Positions 11,286 to 32,340 of a DNA stretch of 53,428 bases are shown piece after piece. The stretch's first letter is position 1. Each line of letters begins with the position of its first letter. This stretch comes from a virus (Duplodnaviria > Caudoviricetes): the IMG/VR virus record IMGVR_UViG_3300013285_000002, positions 1 through 53,428 of that record; one strand, given 5' to 3'. The notes under the pieces were generated by a model. It saw only the letters and a program-made list of their open reading frames with translations, was not told where the DNA came from and ran no database searches. The translations under genes were made by a program, and so were the position numbers.

Positions 11286-11723
11286 ATGAGTGCAATGTCA
11301 GACTATCTTGAGAACAAGATCATCGACCAACTGTTTCGCGGCCAAGCTTATGCTTTTCCGTCCACGCTTTACATTGGCCTGCTAACTGCCGTCCCTTCGG
11401 ATACTGGCGGTGGTACTGAAGTTTCTGGTGGTGGCTATGCACGCGCATCATCTGCTGCTGGCTTGGCTACCTTTGCTGGTACACAAGGTGTCGGTACTAC
11501 CGCCGCATCTACTGGCAACACTGGCACAACTTCAAACAATGCGTCGATCACCTTTGTGACTCCGACTGCAAGTTGGGGTGCTGTAACTTCATTCGGTATC
11601 TACGATACGGCTACTGGCGGAAACTTGTTGTTCTACGGTACGCTCAGTATCAGCAAAACCATCAACCAAGGCGACACGGTAACGTTCCCTGCCGCTTCTC
11701 TGTCTGTCCAAATCGACAACTAA
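11286..11723 (+). CDS. Tail fibre/collar-like structural protein
   Basis: MSDYLEN...YIGLLTA.P.D.G...EVSGGGYAR...WG.VT.FGIYD...GGNLLFYG motif typical of phage structural proteins. Confidence 0.75.
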   Translation: MSAMSDYLENKIIDQLFRGQAYAFPSTLYIGLLTAVPSDTGGGTEVSGGGYARASSAAGLATFAGTQGVGTTAASTGNTGTTSNNASITFVTPTASWGAVTSFGIYDTATGGNLLFYGTLSISKTINQGDTVTFPAASLSVQIDN

Positions 11724-11730
11724 TTGATCC

Positions 11731-13362
11731 ATGTTACTGAACAAGGCTGCCCTTGATACGTCAGTACTGAACGGCTCTGCTGGTGGAAGTGTACAAAGCC
11801 TTTCGGCTAGTGCCTTTGTCAGCAGTTCCTCAGTCGGCGCACTCACCAATACTCAGAGTCTTGGCGCAGCTTCGTTCGTAACATCGACTGCAAATGGTTT
11901 GCTCTCAAAGAGTGCTCCACTTGCGTCATCAATTCAGTCATCAGCCGCTGCACTAGGTGGAATTACAGACACGATCCCACTGGGTTCATCTGTCTCAGTT
12001 TCATCTTATGCAGTCGGTGCAACTTTTGATACGCTCCCAATTGCATCAGTTGCTGGAACAGCAGCAATCACCAACATTGTCAAAGCAGATACGTCTGTTG
12101 CTTACTCTGTTGCGTCATCTGTTTCTGTTGCCTCTATTGCTTCTGCACTGGTATCGCTGACAAAGCCAATTAACGCAAGCGTACAAGCAGTTGCATCGTA
12201 CTCCGCTGGACTTACCAATACGATATGGCTGGCAAGTTCTACCTCTGTTGGATCGTCTGTATCTGGTGCGATTCTTGCCGTTAAAACACTGTCCACTGTG
12301 GCTGTCTCATCGGCAACTGCAACTGGCGGGTTGGTTGATTTAATTCCGCTTGACGCTATTGCGACATCTTCTGTTGCGACATTGGCTACCACCTCCGTAG
12401 CTTTTATCGTTGATGCTAGTGTCTCTGCCAAGGCTACTGTCACTGGTGATATTCCACTTGGAATTAACCTCCTTGCCGGTCGGCCAAGCAACTCTCTCGG
12501 TGAGTCGTCGCTAAACACATTTGCTCTGAATGATGGATCAAGTTTTGTTTCTTCTGGAAGCAAGGTAAGCGGGACAATCATCATCATCTTTGCTGCCTCG
12601 GCAAATGTTGGATGTGTATCCGTTTCGAATGGTGGCCTTCAGAACACAATCCCACTGATAGGAAGTGCAAGCACGGGATCAATCAGTACCGCCATTGCCA
12701 GCCTTGATCTGGTTAAAAACATCGGAGCCTCGGCTTCTGGCCTGACTTCAATCTCGGCTGACATCAATCTTGTCAAAGGGATTGGCTCTATAGTTTCAGT
12801 AACTTCCACAACAGCAGCATCTGCCAATATAGTGAAGGGTCTTGGGGGTTCACTGAACGTCGCTGGAGACTCCATTCCAGCAGTGACCTCAGTCCACTAT
12901 GTAATTGAGTCAAAGGCTGTCTCAAGCGCTCTGACAAGTGGCGGCATAAATCTCGTCAAGCCTATTGCTGGCTCGATTGCTTCAAGTGTTTATGCAACCC
13001 CAGTCAAGTCAAGTGTTGCGTATGTTGTCATGGGCGGTGGACTTGTACTCGTTAAGACGACTGCCGATCTACATAAGACTGACAACCTCGGTAGCTTGGA
13101 AGGCACAAGTGCAATAGCAAACATTGCTTTTGCCAACATTATGCTTCGCAAGCCGCTTGGCGCAGTAGCATTTATTACTCTTGCAACAGACGCCAACTTA
13201 GTTGCAGCACACACAGTTGACTATGACATTGCATTTAGCTCGTATGCAGAAATGATTGCTGGAGTCATACAGATGGAGTCGCATGTTTCTGATGTGACCG
13301 CAGAGGTAATAGATGTCTCATACATCACAAGTGATGTTGAAGAGATTGAAAACGCTTTATAA
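11731..13362 (+). CDS. Ser/Ala/Val-rich repetitive fibre-like structural protein
   Basis: 543 aa with degenerate repeats of roughly 20 residues; located in the tail module. Confidence 0.7.
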   Translation: MLLNKAALDTSVLNGSAGGSVQSLSASAFVSSSSVGALTNTQSLGAASFVTSTANGLLSKSAPLASSIQSSAAALGGITDTIPLGSSVSVSSYAVGATFDTLPIASVAGTAAITNIVKADTSVAYSVASSVSVASIASALVSLTKPINASVQAVASYSAGLTNTIWLASSTSVGSSVSGAILAVKTLSTVAVSSATATGGLVDLIPLDAIATSSVATLATTSVAFIVDASVSAKATVTGDIPLGINLLAGRPSNSLGESSLNTFALNDGSSFVSSGSKVSGTIIIIFAASANVGCVSVSNGGLQNTIPLIGSASTGSISTAIASLDLVKNIGASASGLTSISADINLVKGIGSIVSVTSTTAASANIVKGLGGSLNVAGDSIPAVTSVHYVIESKAVSSALTSGGINLVKPIAGSIASSVYATPVKSSVAYVVMGGGLVLVKTTADLHKTDNLGSLEGTSAIANIAFANIMLRKPLGAVAFITLATDANLVAAHTVDYDIAFSSYAEMIAGVIQMESHVSDVTAEVIDVSYITSDVEEIENAL

Positions 13363-13374
13363 CAAGGAACCCAA

Positions 13375-14217
13375 ATGTTGAAATTTACGAACAATGCTTC
13401 GGCAACTCTTGCGGGAAGTATCGCAAGCACAGCTACAAGCATTACGCTTTCTTCTGGCAATGGTGCTCTGATGCCTGCACTAGCAGCCGGTGAGTTCTTT
13501 TTTGCCACACTGATCGACTCATCAAACAACCTTGAGGTGATTCGCGTCACTGCTCGAAGTGCTGATGTTTTGACTGTGACTCGCGCTCAAGATGGAACTA
13601 CTGCTCGTGCATACGCCGCTGGTGACAAGGTTGAATTGCGCCTAGTTGCTGCAACATTCCTTGAACTTGTTCAGCGTGACGGCTCTGTTGTTATGACTGC
13701 CAACTTGAATCATGGTGGGTTCAAAGCGACTGGGCTTGCTGAGCCGACAGTATCAACAGATGGAGCTACAAAGAATTACACTGATACAGCAATTTCAAGT
13801 GCCGTCAGTGCAGAAGCAACGGCTCGCTCCAATGCTGATGCCGCTGAAATTACTGCTCGTAACACGGCAATTTCTAATGAAGCTACTGCAAGAACGAATG
13901 CAGACACTGCATTAGGTGCAGCGAAAGTAAGTCTTGATGGATCAAATGCAACTGGCACATGGGCTGGATCAACTGAATGGACTCGTGTAACCAATCGCCC
14001 AACATCATTGAACTCATTTTCAAATGACCCCGGATTTACGAATGGTGGTGGTGGCTACACAACTGCACGAACTTATGGCGATGGTGTAAATGCAATGGGA
14101 GCAGCGCCAGGAGGCGGATTAAATGTATCTGGCCGCGGCCTACAAATTATAAAAAGTGGGAATAATTATTTACTTTGGGGTAGCAATTGCAACTGTAATT
14201 GCTGCTGCTGCTGTTAA
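13375..14217 (+). CDS. Tail fibre protein with C-terminal Cys-rich tag (NCNCNCCCCC)
   Basis: N-terminal fibre-anchor domain (LTVTRAQDGT..AGDKVELR), DGATKNY motif, EATAR coiled-coil repeats; all 7 Cys lie in the last 9 residues. Confidence 0.85.
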   Translation: MLKFTNNASATLAGSIASTATSITLSSGNGALMPALAAGEFFFATLIDSSNNLEVIRVTARSADVLTVTRAQDGTTARAYAAGDKVELRLVAATFLELVQRDGSVVMTANLNHGGFKATGLAEPTVSTDGATKNYTDTAISSAVSAEATARSNADAAEITARNTAISNEATARTNADTALGAAKVSLDGSNATGTWAGSTEWTRVTNRPTSLNSFSNDPGFTNGGGGYTTARTYGDGVNAMGAAPGGGLNVSGRGLQIIKSGNNYLLWGSNCNCNCCCCC

Positions 14218-14232
14218 TAGAAAGATAATATT

Positions 14233-15039
14233 ATGAAAATTTTTCATGTAAAAATACATAAAGCAAATACTGCTGTTGAACTTTCATTTTATGAAGAGTC
14301 AATTAGTGTTTCAGTTATGGTGCATTATCCAACTTCAAAAGAAAATGATGATGGTATATCTTTAGAAGTTCCATTTTCGTTTAACAACCCTGATTTAACA
14401 TACAAAAAATCTACAGCAGTAATAAAAATTGCTGATTTACAGTCAAGCCCTCAAGCAGAGTCTGGTGCGTGTTGGAATGTGTATATGGATGAAAATTCAC
14501 TGTACCCAATCATCATAAATTCAAATGCAATGTCTCAGCCATTTCGCGGAGACGTTCATCAAGTTTATTCTGCATACTTACAAAAACCTCCGACGATTGT
14601 GATTTGTGTTCCAAGAATTGATTCTAAATTAGATGACTGCTTGATAGGCGTAAACACGTCTACCGATGCAGATGTAGGATTTAAATGCAGTACCACATTT
14701 ACTGATCTTGGAGATTCATATGATCTTGATTATGTGAGAAAAATGGTTCGTCCATTACTCTCGATTGTTGGAAACTTATCTATAACTCAAGGTACTTCGG
14801 AAATCTTTAACGTTACAGTTAATAATCAAGATGGTTCTATTGATGAACAGTTCAACGATCCTATCTATTTTGAGGCTACTGGTGGTCACTTAGCTGTATC
14901 TAAAGTGCAAGTAGTCAATGGAGTTGCTAAAGTAAGATTAATTGGGGATCACTTGATTGAAGGTGATGCAATTTCCATCAAAGCTGGAACGAAGTTTTAT
15001 ACATCACTTGCTAAGATTCATGTAAGGGTAACTGCATGA
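14233..15039 (+). CDS. Hypothetical protein with Ig-like C-terminal domain (fibre partner/chaperone?)
   Basis: 268 aa, visibly AT-rich gene; beta-rich C-terminus (FNVTVNNQDGS...EATGGHL...VVNGVAKVRL). Confidence 0.7.
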   Translation: MKIFHVKIHKANTAVELSFYEESISVSVMVHYPTSKENDDGISLEVPFSFNNPDLTYKKSTAVIKIADLQSSPQAESGACWNVYMDENSLYPIIINSNAMSQPFRGDVHQVYSAYLQKPPTIVICVPRIDSKLDDCLIGVNTSTDADVGFKCSTTFTDLGDSYDLDYVRKMVRPLLSIVGNLSITQGTSEIFNVTVNNQDGSIDEQFNDPIYFEATGGHLAVSKVQVVNGVAKVRLIGDHLIEGDAISIKAGTKFYTSLAKIHVRVTA

Positions 15040-15647
15040 TTTTAAATTTGTGGCCTACTCGCGTAGCAGTCACAAAGCTCAACTACACAAACGAGTTTCT
15101 TGACAAGCTCAAGAACACTTGTTTGCGTGTTGATGCCCAGAAGAATCCAGAGGCTAAACCTTGGACTCGTGCTGACCATGACATCTATGATGAGCCGGAC
15201 GGTGAGCTGATAACTCTCAAGCAAGACATCATTGAATATGCTGAGCGTGCGTATGGTGTTAAGGTCGAGTCAATGACTGGAAGGGATATGATTTTGAGGG
15301 ATCGAGACTTGATTCCTCCGCACTCTGACCGAGACTCTCACTTGTCAGCAATCTTCTACATCCAGACTCCTGTTGTTGTGAAGCCACAAGAAAAAGATTG
15401 GAATGGTTTCTTTTTCATACAAGACCCTAGTCGCTACTTTGATGCACGTCAGATGCCTTGGGAGAACTGTGCCAACCATACAATAGCAGCAGAGAAAAAC
15501 CTATTGGTCATCTTCCCATCGCACCTCTGCCACTTCACTCACGCCATGAACCATCCAGATATGCAAATCGAGATGCACCATGAGATAAAAGTAAGCGGGG
15601 TGCATAACAGCAACGTGAGACGCATCACATACACCGAGGAAGAGTAA
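15036..15647 (+). CDS. 2OG-Fe(II) oxygenase-like protein (atypical)
   Basis: PHSD (HxD), LSAIFY, QDP, LVIFPSHLCH distal His; lacks the usual RxS motif. Confidence 0.75.
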   Translation: MILNLWPTRVAVTKLNYTNEFLDKLKNTCLRVDAQKNPEAKPWTRADHDIYDEPDGELITLKQDIIEYAERAYGVKVESMTGRDMILRDRDLIPPHSDRDSHLSAIFYIQTPVVVKPQEKDWNGFFFIQDPSRYFDARQMPWENCANHTIAAEKNLLVIFPSHLCHFTHAMNHPDMQIEMHHEIKVSGVHNSNVRRITYTEEE

Positions 15648-17029
15648 TGGCACTGTTCAGGCTGAACACATTGAATCCAATGGATTCTGCTGATAAGAAA
15701 GTTTTCTACTACGACAACATGACATCAGCAATTCTTGATGAAAATCAAAACAAGATTGTCTTTGGTCAGTCTGAGCACAAAGAGTACAAGGATGCAGTTG
15801 TTGTTTCTGAAAACTCTCCGGGCAAGAAGACAAGCAGCATCAAACGTTTAAAGATTCAGCTTGGACTTTCCTGTAACTACGAATGTACCTACTGCAATCA
15901 ACGGTTTGTCCCTCATGCTGATGAGACAAACCCAGAAAGCATTGAGCCTTTCCTATCGCAGCTACCAACTTGGTTTGATGGTGGCTCTGATGGTAAAGGC
16001 GAGGGTGTAATTCTTGAGTTTTGGGGTGGTGAGCCATTTGTCTACTGGAAAACACTGAAGCCTTTGGCCGAGCGATTGAAGTCGATGTACCCAAACATCA
16101 CTTTTACGATGATTACCAATGGCTCTCTTTTGACATATGAAAAGAACCAGTGGCTTGATGATCTTGGATTTCAGATTGGCGTTTCTCATGATGGCCCCGG
16201 CTACCATGTTCGCGGTAAAGACCCGCTTGATGATCCTGAGCAACGGGCTGCAATCCTAGACTTGTGGAATAGGTTAAGCCCAACCAACCGCATGAGCTTC
16301 AACGCAATGATTAACAAAGACAATCAAAGCCGAAGTGACATTGCAGACTTTTTTCAAAAGAGTTTTGGGTTTACTCCTCCCATTGGCGAAGGAACATTTA
16401 TTGACCCATATGATGAGGGCGGTGAGAGTGCTTGCTTCGTTGAACCGGCAGATCATTTTGAGTTCAGGAACAAATCATTAGTTGAGCTTCGTGAAGGTGG
16501 AGCAAAGAACTTTGTCACCATCTCACAAAAGATTGATGACTTTGCAAAATCAGTAGTCAACAATCGACCGGCATCTGCTGTTGGTCAGAAGTGTGGAATG
16601 GACAGAACTGATAACATCGCCGTTGACCTTCTAGGGAATGTGCTAACTTGCCAAAACACCTCTCATGTTTCTTCTGGCCCAAATGGTCAGAGTCACCACA
16701 TCGGTCATGTAAGTAACCTTGAGGCTGTTGAACTCAAGACATCTTCACACTGGTCAATACGAGAAGAATGTCCTAAGTGTCCAGTGCTACAAATCTGTAA
16801 AGGTAGCTGCATGTTCCTACATGGACGGCTTTGGGAAATTGGATGTGACGCAGCTTTCTCTGACAACATCTCAATCTTCTCAGCAGCCTTTGAGTCAATG
16901 ACTGGATACATTCCATTCTATATTGATGGGCCACAGCGAGATAACCGTAAAGATATTTTTGGTCTGGTTAATGGCGCACCCGCAAGAAGCGCTAGGAAGC
17001 CATTCCCAATTCCTGTTATTTCAGCATGA
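15647..17029 (+). CDS. Radical SAM/SPASM-domain enzyme (peptide/protein maturase type)
   Basis: CNYECTYC, FWGGEP, TNGSLL, VSHDG motifs; SPASM cysteines CGMDR..GNVLTCQ..CPKCPVLQICKGSC..C. Confidence 0.93.
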   Translation: MALFRLNTLNPMDSADKKVFYYDNMTSAILDENQNKIVFGQSEHKEYKDAVVVSENSPGKKTSSIKRLKIQLGLSCNYECTYCNQRFVPHADETNPESIEPFLSQLPTWFDGGSDGKGEGVILEFWGGEPFVYWKTLKPLAERLKSMYPNITFTMITNGSLLTYEKNQWLDDLGFQIGVSHDGPGYHVRGKDPLDDPEQRAAILDLWNRLSPTNRMSFNAMINKDNQSRSDIADFFQKSFGFTPPIGEGTFIDPYDEGGESACFVEPADHFEFRNKSLVELREGGAKNFVTISQKIDDFAKSVVNNRPASAVGQKCGMDRTDNIAVDLLGNVLTCQNTSHVSSGPNGQSHHIGHVSNLEAVELKTSSHWSIREECPKCPVLQICKGSCMFLHGRLWEIGCDAAFSDNISIFSAAFESMTGYIPFYIDGPQRDNRKDIFGLVNGAPARSARKPFPIPVISA

Positions 17030-17580
17030 GCCATATAAATCTGTTTGGTACTCCAGTATGGAAGCATTTTGTTGAGGCTCCTGAAGAGTTCAACAGAAAC
17101 CTATTTGTACAAGGCGAGTCATTTATTCGAGGCATGAACTACTTTGATCTTCCCGGTGATGCTATTGCCGAACTTAAAGTAAGCGTACTTGGGTTATCAA
17201 AGTCCATTGCAGCCGAGTTCAATTGGAATCGCCAAATAGCCTTTATCAAAGGTAGACAAAATCCAATTCATAAGAATCAGATTGATAGTCCTCACCACCA
17301 TAGTTCTGCAAAATTAGTTGGCGTCTACTATGTATCAGCTAATCTGGGGCAAGGAGACATCCTACTTCATGATCCTCGTGGAGCTACTACTTGGGATGAT
17401 CCTCAAGCAAGGTCGGACGATGGTAAGACGATGCGATCTTTCCATAGGATTACACCAGTATCCGGAATGCTTCTCCTTTTCCCCGGATACCTAATTCATT
17501 CTGTTGAACCAAATCTCACTGATGACGTAAGACTTTCAATTGCGATTGAAGTCTATACAGAATTTCCATCAGAACATTAA
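17026..17580 (+). CDS. 2OG-Fe(II) oxygenase (TIGR02466-like)
   Basis: LFGTPV, PHHH..GVYYV, LHDPR, LLFPGYLIHSV.PN...RLSIA motifs. Confidence 0.85.
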   Translation: MSHINLFGTPVWKHFVEAPEEFNRNLFVQGESFIRGMNYFDLPGDAIAELKVSVLGLSKSIAAEFNWNRQIAFIKGRQNPIHKNQIDSPHHHSSAKLVGVYYVSANLGQGDILLHDPRGATTWDDPQARSDDGKTMRSFHRITPVSGMLLLFPGYLIHSVEPNLTDDVRLSIAIEVYTEFPSEH

Positions 17581-31863: not shown

Positions 31864-32340
31864 AAAACTGGTGAAGACTGATGAAAACTGGTGAGGATTG
31901 GAGTGTGCCTAATTTGTGTCCAAACTTTTATAGCGGCTTGTAGTTATATGTGTTTTAAGCACGCTTTTGGGCACAAGAAGATCGGGCAGATCGTGCGCTC
32001 AAGTTACTGATTTCTCAGGGATTTTTACTTCTTGTACTGCTGCATATGTGTGACTTGAAATCTGGTGTCAGTGCTTGTAAACAAAGGGCTAGCGGGGCGG
32101 TGTGTACGAATCTGTGTTTTACCCCAAAAGCGCTACAATTTACAGTCTTGCACTGGGTGTTTTGCAGGTAAGGAAGAGTGGCAGAGTGGTCGATTGCAAT
32201 AGTCTTGAAAACTATCGAAGGGTTAAACCTTCCGTGAGTTCGAATCTCACCTCTTCCGCCAAACTTGCATCTCATCCTACCAACCGTAGATGCTGACCAG
32301 CTTCAGTCTGCTGTCCACGTTGTCCCAATACCTGACCCAT
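31864..32340. promoter_or_regulatory. Putative attP region (10-bp tandem repeats, arm-type sites, IHF-like site)
   Basis: Four 10-bp units at 31864-31903; TGTGCCTAAT/TGTGTCCAAA and an inverted TTTGGGCACA; CAAGTTACTGATT at 32000-32012; adjacent to the integrase 3' end. Confidence 0.6.
32172..32261 (+). tRNA. tRNA-Ser (anticodon TGA), complete with encoded CCA
   Basis: Acceptor stem GGAAGAG/CTCTTCC + G + CCA; anticodon arm ATAGT-CTTGAAA-ACTAT; long variable arm; GTTCGAATC T-loop. Confidence 0.95.

What the first reader, a model, noticed from the sequence alone, without database searches (positions are those of the whole stretch)
13375..17580. RiPP-like post-translational modification system attached to a phage tail fibre
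Seen: the 280-aa tail fibre has no cysteine until its last 9 residues, CNCNCCCCC. It is followed by four tightly packed genes (ATGA/TAATG overlaps among them): an Ig-like protein, an oxygenase, a radical SAM/SPASM enzyme and a second oxygenase. The block sits between tail genes and the lysis cassette. Established: SPASM-domain radical SAM enzymes modify Cys-rich peptides, forming sactipeptide/ranthipeptide thioethers; NxxcB-type enzymes link Cys-S to Asn C-beta, and the tag contains NxxC frames (NCNC, NCCC). 2OG-Fe(II) oxygenases hydroxylate Asn/Asp/Pro in proteins. Inference: the phage fuses a RiPP-like core to a virion protein and encodes its maturases, building a cross-linked or metal-binding fibre tip for host recognition, stability or metal display. 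From memory, a TIGRFAM family (rSAM_vs_C_rich) covers radical SAM enzymes near Cys-rich proteins, so related loci may be catalogued; I know of no established chemistry for a virion.
Basis: partly seen in the sequence, partly recalled or inferred. Interest (0 to 1): 0.92.

Follow-up and report, generated by a model that had tools for sequence, protein, structure and literature searches.

The report
Radical-SAM cassette for Asn-Cys fibre tip
This phage's tail fibre ends in a run of asparagine-cysteine pairs and is followed by a dedicated set of modifying enzymes, a pairing that recurs in many other phages and prophages, so these viruses very probably alter their host-binding fibre tips chemically, in a way no searched paper describes.

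Summary
The 280-aa tail fibre (13375-14217) has all 7 of its cysteines in its last 9 residues (NCNCNCCCCC). Four overlapping genes follow it: a 268-aa protein of no named family with an Ig-like C-terminal domain, a PF13759 oxygenase, a radical SAM/SPASM enzyme, and a second PF13759 oxygenase.

The link between enzyme and tag holds in both directions.
- Of 109 non-identical loci carrying a homologue of the enzyme with enough upstream DNA, 104 have an upstream same-strand ORF with an (x-Cys)>=3 repeat. In 97 of these it lies at the C-terminus. The background is 51 of 8065 other ORFs.
- Of 31 viral loci found by the tag's DNA pattern alone, 28 have the enzyme downstream.

The carriers are unrelated tail-fibre-type proteins of 89-686 aa. 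The commonest cassette is tag protein, p268, oxygenase, radical SAM enzyme.

The enzyme reaches no curated family cut-off (PapB, anSME and TIGR04463 all fail). The chemistry is therefore inferred, and Cys-to-Asn/Asp thioether cross-links are the most likely product. The system is not a classical RiPP, because I found no leader, RRE, protease or exporter.

Six literature searches found no description. Earlier agents of this scan reported the same system on other genomes. What is specific to this window is the poly-Cys end, the second oxygenase, and an AT-rich fibre tip plus p268 segment.

The parts
13375..14217 (+). Tail fibre protein, 280 aa. The N-terminal anchor domain is shared with Bcep22-like and Ralstonia podophage fibres. 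The middle has EATAR-type repeats. The C-terminal part is found in no cultured phage searched.
   Evidence: ORF and translation; phrog_8469, residues 2-144, E 3.4e-28; 101 phage records match only about residues 2-120, and 0 of 101 cover 80% or more.
14185..14214 (+). C-terminal tag NCNCNCCCCC: three Asn-Cys pairs followed by four more Cys, encoded in part by a (TGC)4 TGT run. It is the proposed substrate of the cassette.
   Evidence: codons; all 7 Cys of the protein lie here; pattern found once, 0 expected. N271, C272, C274 and C276 are invariant across 54 carriers.
14233..15039 (+). p268, an accessory protein of an unnamed phage family. It has an N-terminal alpha/beta domain (about 1-170) and a C-terminal Ig-like domain (about 175-268). 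Its role is unknown; substrate-presenting partner or fibre-tip chaperone are the proposals.
   Evidence: no family. AF2 pLDDT 90.7; only Ig-domain matches in the PDB, TMq 0.32 or less; full-length matches only to 7 uncharacterised phage proteins, TMq 0.63-0.71; homologue found in 103 of 147 loci; 919 representative clusters at E<=1e-10.
15036..15647 (+). Oxygenase 1 (203 aa), 2OG-Fe(II)-oxygenase fold, PF13759. It keeps H96-x-D98 and the distal H166 but lacks the RxS motif of its neighbour. This is the cassette's conserved oxygenase type.
   Evidence: 29.4 bits against a cut-off of 27. H96 and H166 are invariant in 37 sequences, and this subgroup has (V/I)E(I/V)H where oxygenase 2 has RLS; an oxygenase is found in 106 of 147 loci.
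15647..17029 (+). Radical SAM/SPASM enzyme (460 aa). It has CxxxCxxC at C76/C80/C83 and a full SPASM seven-Cys set (C316, C335, C375, C378, C384, C388, C400). The N-terminal beta-hairpin is conserved.
   Evidence: PF04055. TIGR04085 31.3 against 27; the best maturase model, PapB, scores 53.6 against 340; phrog_1802, E 8.9e-63; these Cys are invariant in 17 homologues; nearest structures are TvgB, CteB, ChlB and anSME. AF2 model.
17026..17580 (+). Oxygenase 2 (184 aa), a canonical PF13759 / near-TIGR02466 type with an H-x-H metal motif, a distal His and RLS. It is an extra gene that is rare in this position.
   Evidence: 66 bits. TIGR02466, 59.7 against 62.5. (alignment). BLASTP at 1e-5 finds it in only 3 of 147 loci.

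Best explanation
This is a phage-encoded maturation cassette that modifies the fibre's own C-terminal (Asn-Cys)n tag before or during virion assembly.

The proposed steps are as follows.
1. The radical SAM/SPASM enzyme binds the extended tail. It probably pairs its conserved N-terminal beta-hairpin with the amphipathic strand just before the tag (inferred).
2. It abstracts a hydrogen from the residue next to a Cys. That residue is Asn, less often Asp or Ala.
3. It joins the Cys sulfur to that carbon with the help of its auxiliary Fe-S clusters, giving thioether cross-links (inferred by analogy with NxxcB, PapB, QhpD and CrpC).
4. The PF13759 oxygenase or oxygenases add an oxygen-dependent step on the same tag. 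Asn/Asp hydroxylation is the default guess.
5. p268 is a dedicated accessory partner of unknown role.

The product would be a compact, redox-insensitive, covalently stapled fibre end that can be made in the reducing cytoplasm, where disulfides cannot form.

Shown here: the genes, their motifs, and the two-way genomic linkage of tag and enzyme across unrelated fibre proteins. Inferred: the substrate relation, which I judge very likely. More weakly inferred: the thioether chemistry, the order of steps and the benefit to the virion.
For: 1. Linkage from enzyme to tag. Of 147 non-identical loci with a homologue of the enzyme, 109 have at least 3500 nt upstream. Of these, 104 have a same-strand upstream ORF with (xC)>=3, and in 97 the repeat lies within 8 aa of the C-terminus. 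The background is 51 of 8065 other ORFs. Three of the 5 misses carry shorter NC-type ends.

2. Linkage from tag to enzyme. Of 53 viral loci found only by an NCNCNCNC-stop DNA pattern, 31 have at least 4 kb downstream, and 28 of those have the enzyme downstream on the same strand. In the 3 exceptions the pattern does not end an ORF of 80 aa or more.

3. The carriers are unrelated apart from the tag. Lengths run from 89 to 686 aa. Many different tail-fibre PHROGs match, plus collagen, Hint and Shufflon_N domains. Only N271, C272, C274 and C276 are invariant. The same pairing occurs in cultured phages of three morphotypes: RSP15, JWF and 2-1.

4. In 4 loci the repeat is followed directly by a Hint-type self-cleaving domain. 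The repeat would therefore still end the mature protein there.

5. The enzyme has everything a thioether-forming SPASM maturase needs, namely CxxxCxxC plus the seven-Cys SPASM set, all invariant. Its best full-length NCBIfam match is the ranthipeptide maturase PapB. CteB and anSME are among its nearest structures.

6. The residue before Cys in the repeats is N 455, D 76, A 53, C 20. A review states that NxxcB's native acceptor is Asn and that it tolerates Ala, Gln and Asp (PMC9389541, passages read). CrpC installs ranthionine links on a whole protein (PMC13692751, section 12 read).

7. The cassette is conserved. Of 91 loci with both flanks, 73 have p268 and 72 have an oxygenase. The commonest order is tag protein, p268, oxygenase, rSAM (32 of 91). 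The window's genes overlap, which indicates one transcription unit.
Against: - No chemistry was measured here or, as far as I can tell, anywhere.
- The enzyme fails every curated maturase cut-off: PapB 53.6 against 340, anSME 43.2 against 349, TIGR04463 28.5 against 525.
- Its best sequence match among solved structures is TvgB (8vpo, E 1.1e-9). By the title of a paper citing that entry, TvgB is a cyclopropylglycine synthase, not a thioether former.
- Structural similarity to CteB, ChlB and anSME is only moderate, TMq 0.45-0.51.
- Adjacent N-C spacing is tighter than the NxxC and CxxxD spacings of the known enzymes. The last four Cys of this window's tag have no Asn partner.
- No RRE-like helices appear in the model, so how the substrate is recognised is unknown.
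- In the 229-kb phage locus L007 the three small tag proteins lie among nucleotide-metabolism and GroEL genes, not in a structural module. Not every carrier is therefore demonstrably a fibre.
- The surveys took the best 80 of 527 viral loci and the best 80 of 147 genomic loci. They are therefore biased towards close relatives of this enzyme, and relatedness inflates the counts.
Confidence: 0.6

Rival explanations
1. The radical SAM enzyme does modify the tag, but the chemistry is different. One option is oxidation of Cys to formylglycine, as by anSME. Others are epimerisation, C-C or C-O cross-links, or another reaction. The oxygenase might even do the same job when oxygen is present.
For: anSME is among the nearest solved structures and aligns over the full length (TIGR03942 at 43.2 bits). 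The best sequence match among solved structures is TvgB, which makes C-C bonds according to the title of a paper citing 8VPO. Oxygenase 1 lacks the RxS motif seen in oxygenase 2, so it may not be a standard hydroxylase. Pairs of O2-dependent and O2-independent enzymes for one step are a known theme (general knowledge, recalled).
Against: The tag has no C/S-x-P/A-x-R sulfatase motif (recalled motif; the tag sequence is). The strong preference for Asn/Asp/Ala before each Cys fits a donor-acceptor pair better than modification of Cys alone. All scores to these families lie far below their cut-offs.
Confidence: 0.17
2. The tag is mainly a metal- or Fe-S-binding knob, with metallothionein-like CxC and CC motifs brought together in a trimeric fibre. 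The neighbouring enzymes serve to load it, protect it, or do something else.
For: CxCxC and CC runs are typical metal-thiolate motifs (general knowledge, recalled). A trimer would cluster 21 thiols; that the fibre is a trimer is itself an inference from the fibre class. The window's tag ends in four Cys without Asn.
Against: Metal binding alone does not explain why a SPASM radical SAM enzyme accompanies the tag in 104 of 109 and 28 of 31 loci. It also does not explain why the non-Cys position is so strongly Asn/Asp. No metal-handling genes are in the cassette.
Confidence: 0.08
3. This is a true RiPP pathway. The tag is cut off and released as a small modified peptide, for example a signal or toxin, and the fibre-like proteins act only as very long leaders.
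For: Eleven loci have three tandem carriers of 92-115 aa that look like precursor paralogues. In L007 they lie outside a structural module.
Against: No protease, exporter or immunity gene lies in the window's cassette. Carriers match tail-fibre PHROGs and sit among fibre genes followed by lysis genes. Where a cleaving domain is present (Hint), it cuts after the tag, not before it.
Confidence: 0.05
4. The enzymes act on something other than the fibre, such as DNA bases, a nucleotide or a host molecule. The adjacency to the tag would then be inherited synteny.
For: Phage radical SAM enzymes and 2OG oxygenases with nucleic-acid or nucleotide substrates exist. Viperin-type models score weakly here (NF038283, 45 bits against 180).
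Against: The pairing persists while the carrier proteins and phage types change completely. This is hard to explain by synteny alone. The SPASM domain is typical of peptide and protein maturases.
Confidence: 0.03

Closest known systems
NxxcB/NxxcA (streptococcal radical-SAM RiPP; Cys sulfur to Asn beta-carbon thioether)
   Same: It is a radical SAM enzyme acting on a Cys next to an Asn acceptor. The review states that the acceptor may also be Ala, Gln or Asp (PMC9389541, passages read). This matches the N > D > A usage in the phage tags.
   Different: The spacing is NxxC there and adjacent N-C repeats here. The substrate there is a short leader-bearing peptide; here it is a structural protein. 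I had no NxxcB model or sequence to test, so homology beyond the superfamily level was not tested.
CrpC/CrpA of Methanococcus voltae (TIGR04463; ranthionine cross-links on a Cys-rich protein; PMC13692751)
   Same: It is a SPASM radical SAM enzyme that cross-links a whole Cys-rich protein encoded next to it, rather than a short peptide (abstract and section 12 read).
   Different: The window's enzyme scores 28.5 bits against the TIGR04463 cut-off of 525, so it is a different family. CrpC is described as having a predicted RRE (section heading), and none is evident here. CrpA is not a virion protein, and the paper's main text does not contain 'phage'.
PapB/PapA (freyrasin) and CteB/CteA (SCIFF) ranthipeptide and thioether maturases
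   Same: PapB is the best full-length NCBIfam match (53.6 bits, residues 65-389). CteB is among the nearest structures (5wgg). Both share the three-cluster architecture.
   Different: The score is far below the PapB cut-off of 340. The substrates there are small peptides with CxxxD-type motifs (recalled). Those systems have no p268 and no oxygenase partners.
QhpC/QhpD/QhpG maturation of quinohemoprotein amine dehydrogenase (PMC7876137)
   Same: A radical SAM enzyme first installs intra-peptidyl cross-links in a protein subunit, and an oxygen-dependent enzyme then modifies the same substrate within a complex (abstract read). This is a precedent for a radical SAM enzyme and an oxygenase acting on one protein.
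   Different: The oxygenase there is a flavoprotein acting on Trp, not a PF13759 enzyme. The QhpD model TIGR03906 scores 40.8 bits against 453. The substrate is an enzyme subunit, not a virion fibre.
Metal-coordinating repeats in phage fibre tips, such as the His-x-His iron sites of the T4 long tail fibre tip (recalled, not checked here)
   Same: It is a short alternating-residue repeat at the distal end of a trimeric fibre.
   Different: Those sites need no modifying enzyme. Here a dedicated radical SAM enzyme accompanies the repeat.

Membership tests
Radical SAM superfamily (PF04055) | CxxxCxxC motif for the SAM-binding [4Fe-4S] cluster, and a score above the Pfam gathering threshold | tested here: met
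   C76, C80 and C83 are invariant in 17 homologues. PF04055 scores 31.1 bits against 29.5.
SPASM-domain subfamily (TIGR04085) | C-terminal seven-Cys set, Cx9-15Gx4C ... Cx2Cx5Cx3C ... C, for two auxiliary clusters (motif recalled) | tested here: met
   TIGR04085 scores 31.3 bits against 27. C316-x13-G330-x4-C335, C375-x2-C378-x5-C384-x3-C388 and C400 are all invariant.
TIGR04463 rSAM_vs_C_rich (CrpC family) | Score at or above the curated cut-off of 525 bits | tested here: not met
   28.5 bits, with only residues 51-169 aligned.
PapB-family ranthipeptide maturase (NF047865) | Score at or above the curated cut-off of 340 bits | tested here: not met
   53.6 bits. It is the best of 45 NCBIfam matches, none of which reaches its maturase cut-off.
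Anaerobic sulfatase-maturating enzyme (TIGR03942) | Score at or above the cut-off of 349 bits, and a sulfatase-type substrate motif | tested here: not met
   43.2 bits. The tag NCNCNCCCCC has no Pro/Ala-x-Arg after Cys (the motif is recalled).
RiPP pathway in the strict sense | A short precursor with a leader or follower, and a RiPP recognition element in or beside the maturase | tested here: inconclusive
   The substrate is a 280-aa fibre. The enzyme's N-terminus is modelled as strands 3-10, 13-23 and 28-30 with no helices. p268 has no RRE-like match. A non-canonical recognition mode cannot be excluded.
RiPP pathway in the strict sense | Proteolytic release and export of a small product | tested here: not met
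   The cassette contains no protease or transporter gene. Hint domains, where present, lie after the tag.
2OG-Fe(II) oxygenase, PF13759 | A Pfam score above 27, an HxD/E(H)...H metal triad, and an Arg (RxS) to bind 2-oxoglutarate | tested here: inconclusive
   Both proteins pass Pfam, at 29.4 and 66 bits. H96 and H166 are invariant. RxS is present in the 184-aa protein (RLS) but absent in the 203-aa protein and its subgroup. Use of 2OG by oxygenase 1 is therefore uncertain.
Phage tail fibre | Homology to annotated fibre proteins and a position in the tail module | tested here: met
   phrog_8469 E 3.4e-28 and phrog_30299 E 1.8e-25. The N-terminus matches annotated tail fibre genes of Bcep22-like and Ralstonia phages. 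A Gp80-type fibre gene lies upstream at 11286-11723. Presence in the virion was not testable.
Thioether (ranthionine or sactionine) cross-linked product | -2 Da per link, loss of free thiol, and a C-S bond located by MS/MS or NMR | not testable with these tools
   This requires expression and mass spectrometry.

The most novel reading that the evidence does not exclude
Many tailed phages and prophages build a previously unknown covalent structure at the very end of their fibres. In this reading the (Asn-Cys)n tail is turned by a radical SAM enzyme, an atypical Fe oxygenase and p268 into a ladder of very small thioether rings. Adjacent-residue links would give seven-membered rings. The ladder is possibly hydroxylated, and any unlinked Cys possibly hold metal. 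Because disulfides cannot form before lysis, this would be the phage's way of making a rigid, protease- and redox-proof receptor-contacting tip. It would also give a function to part of the large pool of unexplained phage PF13759 oxygenase genes.
Probability: 0.25. Interest if true: 0.9.

Novelty: new variant of a known kind. Interest (0 to 1): 0.8.

Why it matters
Enzymatic cross-linking of cysteines by radical SAM enzymes is known for small secreted peptides and, very recently, for one archaeal protein. It is not known for virus particles.

If the reading is right, a large set of phages modify the part of the virion that meets the host. The scale is shown by three counts:
- The enzyme family has at least 3040 members at E<=1e-20.
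- The p268 family has 919 representative clusters at E<=1e-10.

This would add a new layer to fibre biology, covering stability, receptor contact and modular tip exchange. It would give a function to three unnamed or vaguely named phage gene families. It would also offer a compact, genetically encoded tag-and-enzyme pair for stapling protein termini. The question is directly testable by co-expression and mass spectrometry.

Tried and rejected
1. Complex prediction of p268 with fibre residues 190-280 returned no verdict (score 0.00, controls not run). It says nothing either way.

2. I guessed that p268 co-varies with the fibre tip, as a tip-specific chaperone would. Of 78 loci with one carrier and a p268, 40 remained after dropping those whose enzyme was at least 90% identical to one already kept. 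Similarity of the 60 aa before the repeat tracks similarity of the enzyme (partial Spearman 0.29; 0 of 500 permutations reached it). It tracks p268 only weakly (0.08; 9 of 500). The guess is therefore not supported. The measure is crude (global identity of very divergent proteins), and relatedness is not removed.

3. Foldseek of p268 against the PDB gave only Ig-domain matches. The protein atlas gave no usable feature hit. Neither suggested a function.

4. Literature searches for a description of the system found nothing relevant:
- radical SAM / tail fiber / phage / cysteine-rich;
- 'NCNCNC' anywhere in the text, 23 papers, 15 listed, none of the listed titles about peptides of this kind;
- radical SAM / SPASM / bacteriophage / thioether / tail, 1 paper, unrelated;
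- radical SAM / RiPP / prophage / tail fiber, 1 paper, unrelated;
- Achromobacter phage JWF, no listed paper holds that term;
- tail fiber / PTM / thioether / phage / cysteine, 1 paper, on chemical conjugation to T7.
Subscription-only papers and supplements are not covered. The CrpC paper's supplementary 'catalytic proximity' figure might help to classify this enzyme, and I could not see it.

5. I rejected filing the enzyme under TIGR04463, PapB, anSME or QhpD, because every cut-off was missed by a wide margin.

6. I looked for the context of the closest relatives (P0009-P0011, 67-77% identical) with the look-up of encoding contigs. I therefore could not ask whether they share the poly-Cys end and the second oxygenase.

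Full report
WHAT IS IN THE WINDOW

The window is a complete 53,428-bp viral record with direct terminal repeats. Six co-oriented genes run on the + strand from 11286 to 17580:
- a Gp80-type fibre protein at 11286-11723 (PF23140, E 2.2e-44);
- a 543-aa Ser/Ala-rich protein with no family;
- the 280-aa fibre at 13375-14217;
- four further genes at 14233-15039, 15036-15647, 15647-17029 and 17026-17580.

The last three junctions are ATGA, TAATG and ATGA overlaps. No convincing promoter or terminator lies inside the block: 10 promoter-like sites against 14.3 expected, and 5 terminator-like sites against 7.1 expected. A holin-like gene, a membrane protein and an M15 endolysin follow.

The fibre has 7 Cys, all among its last 9 residues (NCNCNCCCCC). 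They are encoded by AAT TGC AAC TGT AAT TGC TGC TGC TGC TGT TAA TAG.

THE GENES

The fibre's first 100-140 or so residues match tail-fibre families (phrog_8469, E 3.4e-28). They also match the annotated tail-fibre genes of Bcep22-like Burkholderia podophages and Ralstonia podophages. None of 101 matching phage records covers 80% of the protein, so the distal half with the tag is not seen in cultured phages.

The 460-aa protein is a radical SAM enzyme with a full SPASM domain. It has CxxxCxxC at C76/C80/C83 and the seven-Cys set C316, C335, C375, C378, C384, C388 and C400, all invariant in 17 homologues. It matches phrog_1802 (E 8.9e-63). It reaches none of the 45 NCBIfam maturase models it touches: PapB 53.6 against 340, anSME 43.2 against 349, QhpD 40.8 against 453, and TIGR04463 28.5 against 525.

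Its nearest solved structures are as follows.
- By sequence: 8vpo (E 1.1e-9), CteB (5wgg) and anSME. Entry 8vpo is cited in a paper on radical SAM cyclopropyl synthases; I saw only the listing.
- By fold: ChlB, CteB and anSME, at TMq 0.45-0.51.

In the AlphaFold model (pLDDT 80.9) the N-terminal 30 residues form a confident beta-hairpin plus one strand, with no helices. This is not the winged-helix shape of an RRE. The hairpin carries invariant residues F4, Y22, D23, N24 and S27.

The two flanking enzymes are PF13759 oxygenases (29.4 and 66 bits). In an alignment of 37 cassette oxygenases only the two His ligands are invariant. The residue two positions after the first His is D/E in one subgroup and H in another. 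The 203-aa protein and its subgroup lack the RxS that the 184-aa protein has. This confirms a separate first-reader note.

The 268-aa protein has no family in Pfam, NCBIfam or PHROGs. Its model (pLDDT 90.7) is an alpha/beta domain followed by an Ig-like domain. The PDB gives only Ig-domain matches. Among viral models it matches, over its full length, only 7 uncharacterised phage proteins. A profile of the family finds 919 representative clusters at E<=1e-10.

IS THE ENZYME TIED TO THE TAG?

The cultured phages that carry a 43-49% identical enzyme already suggest a link.
- Ralstonia phage RSP15 has a 'side tail fiber' ending ...NTNCQCGN, then a p268 homologue, a 277-aa protein and the enzyme.
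- Achromobacter phages JWF and 2-1 have a fibre in which NCNCDCNC(NC)SC is followed directly by a Hint self-cleaving domain, then a 241-aa protein and the enzyme.

The enzyme family is large: 3040 proteins at E<=1e-20 among 6478 candidates, nearly all unnamed. I fetched the best 80 of 527 confirmed viral loci and the best 80 of 147 confirmed genomic loci. The genomic loci come mostly from Limnohabitans and other Burkholderiales, with some Alphaproteobacteria.

With the three phage records this makes 163 loci, of which 147 have non-identical enzyme DNA. Of these, 109 have at least 3500 nt upstream.
- 104 of the 109 have a same-strand upstream ORF with at least three consecutive x-Cys units.
- In 97 the repeat ends within 8 residues of the C-terminus.
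- In 7 it is internal. Four of those 7 are followed by a Hint-type domain, and three have short extra tails.
- Among all other ORFs of at least 50 aa in these loci, 51 of 8065 have such a repeat.
- Of the 5 misses, three have shorter NC-type ends (RSP15, L046 and L076) and two have none (L042 and L115, the latter with broken-looking genes).

The residue before Cys is N 455, D 76, A 53 and C 20 times, with the others rarer.

For the reverse test I scanned viral contigs for DNA encoding NCNCNCNC followed by TRR. This gave 53 loci. Of the 31 with at least 4 kb downstream, 28 have the enzyme downstream on the same strand. In the other three the pattern does not end an ORF of 80 aa or more.

WHAT THE CARRIERS ARE

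Carriers range from 89 to 686 aa. Across 54 diverse ones only N271, C272, C274 and C276 (window numbering) are invariant. They match many different tail-fibre PHROGs (phrog_7389 in 8 of 54, phrog_8443 in 6 of 54, and so on). A few carry collagen repeats (2), Hint domains (3 hits) or Shufflon_N (1).

Three contexts were examined.
- In the Limnohabitans parvus prophage locus the order is fibre genes, cassette, endolysin, integrase.
- In a Paraburkholderia locus a 151-aa carrier follows a T4 gp37-like distal fibre subunit among other fibre genes.
- In a 229-kb phage the three small carriers lie among ribonucleotide reductase and GroEL genes instead.

The roughly 20 residues before the repeat fall into several recurring types, such as ...ELIDNGSQIxLRxVxY-...WNGSxIxLxx-...DNTVRIYRNT- and ...GAFNCRT-. 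These usually read as a turn followed by a short strand of alternating hydrophobic residues. The window's ...SGNNYLLWGS- fits that description.

THE CASSETTE

Iterated profiles find p268 in 103 and an oxygenase in 106 of the 147 loci. Many of these loci are truncated. Among the 91 loci with both flanks, 73 have p268 and 72 have an oxygenase. The commonest order is tag protein, p268, oxygenase, enzyme (32 of 91). Most of the rest are the same order with duplications.

The window differs in three ways:
- a second, canonical PF13759 oxygenase lies after the enzyme (found by BLASTP in 3 of 147 loci);
- the tag ends in five consecutive Cys;
- GC content dips to 0.29-0.38 over 14000-15050 (fibre tip and p268), against 0.41-0.48 for the enzymes and about 0.47-0.50 for the flanks.

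The dip suggests that the tip and p268 were exchanged as a unit. I tested whether p268 co-varies with the tip across loci. The signal is weak (partial rho 0.08), whereas tip and enzyme co-vary more (0.29).

HOW IT MOST LIKELY WORKS

The enzyme class, the invariant Cys of the tag, the Asn/Asp/Ala preference at the neighbouring position and the two-way linkage together make the tag the enzyme's substrate. I put this at about 0.8.

The most likely reaction is thioether formation between Cys sulfur and a carbon of the neighbouring residue. Three precedents bear on this.
- NxxcB links Cys to the beta-carbon of Asn and tolerates Ala, Gln and Asp (PMC9389541, passages).
- CrpC installs ranthionine links on a whole protein (PMC13692751, abstract and section 12).
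- QhpD cross-links a protein subunit before an oxygen-dependent enzyme acts on it (PMC7876137, abstract).

I put the thioether chemistry itself at about 0.45-0.5, because every family test failed and the spacing is new. The oxygenases probably hydroxylate Asn/Asp or oxidise Cys. Oxygenase 1, without RxS, may not use 2-oxoglutarate in the standard way.

The Hint-fused variants show that the repeat is meant to end the mature protein. A plausible benefit is a covalent, redox-independent staple made in the cytoplasm, where disulfides cannot form. That is inference.

COMPARISON AND NOVELTY

The system works like the thioether-forming radical SAM/SPASM maturation systems, but it is not a member of any curated family of them. 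It lacks the defining RiPP features of a leader with an RRE and of proteolytic release with export.

Six literature searches found no description of a radical SAM enzyme acting on a phage fibre, nor of (Asn-Cys)n fibre ends. The library excludes most subscription journals and supplements.

Earlier agents of this scan reported the same tag-enzyme system on other genomes, in at least ten follow-ups. I reached the linkage independently before reading their notes, and I took three paper leads from them. I class the finding as a new variant of a known kind, with high interest.

Noticed in passing
window 14000-15050: GC content falls to 0.29-0.38 over the fibre's distal end and the p268 gene. It is 0.41-0.48 for the enzymes and about 0.47-0.50 for the flanks. 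This looks like a recently exchanged fibre-tip and partner segment.
   Followed up: partly
window 32172-32261: A single tRNA-Ser (anticodon UGA) is the only tRNA in the phage. Another first-reader note places it beside the integrase.
   Followed up: no
window 11731-13362: A 543-aa Ser/Ala/Val-rich protein lies between two fibre genes and has no Pfam or PHROG family.
   Followed up: no
L002 3793-5244, L003 3853-5295, L134 4778-6307, L117 4271-5398: These fibres have the Asn-Cys repeat followed directly by a Hint-type self-cleaving domain (C|FPAGT...). They occur in Achromobacter phages JWF and 2-1, in a Burkholderia paludis MSh1 locus and in a Burkholderiaceae MAG. The tag would become C-terminal only after autoprocessing.
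   Followed up: partly
L007 4549-5473 (also L008, L010, L012, L014, L017, L019, L023): Three tandem carriers of 92-115 aa end in NCNCNCNC-type tags. In the 229-kb phage contig behind L007 they sit among ribonucleotide reductase, a further oxygenase and GroEL genes rather than among structural genes.
   Followed up: partly
L146 3064-3752 and L151 3025-3930: On contigs binned to Saccharimonadales and Lishizhenia the Cys-repeat protein lies downstream of the enzyme. Its repeat is internal (...NCNCACNCSKIICAKLY...) and is followed by about 100 more residues. This is a different arrangement from the rest.
   Followed up: no
window 15036-15647 and 17026-17580; L007 3483-4085: These 2OG-oxygenase-fold proteins also match phrog_274, which is labelled 'DNA endonuclease V'. 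For these proteins the label looks like a misnomer.
   Followed up: no
window 14200-14214: The poly-Cys end is encoded by TGC TGC TGC TGC TGT. This short triplet run could change the Cys count by slippage. I did not find close enough relatives to test for length variation.
   Followed up: no
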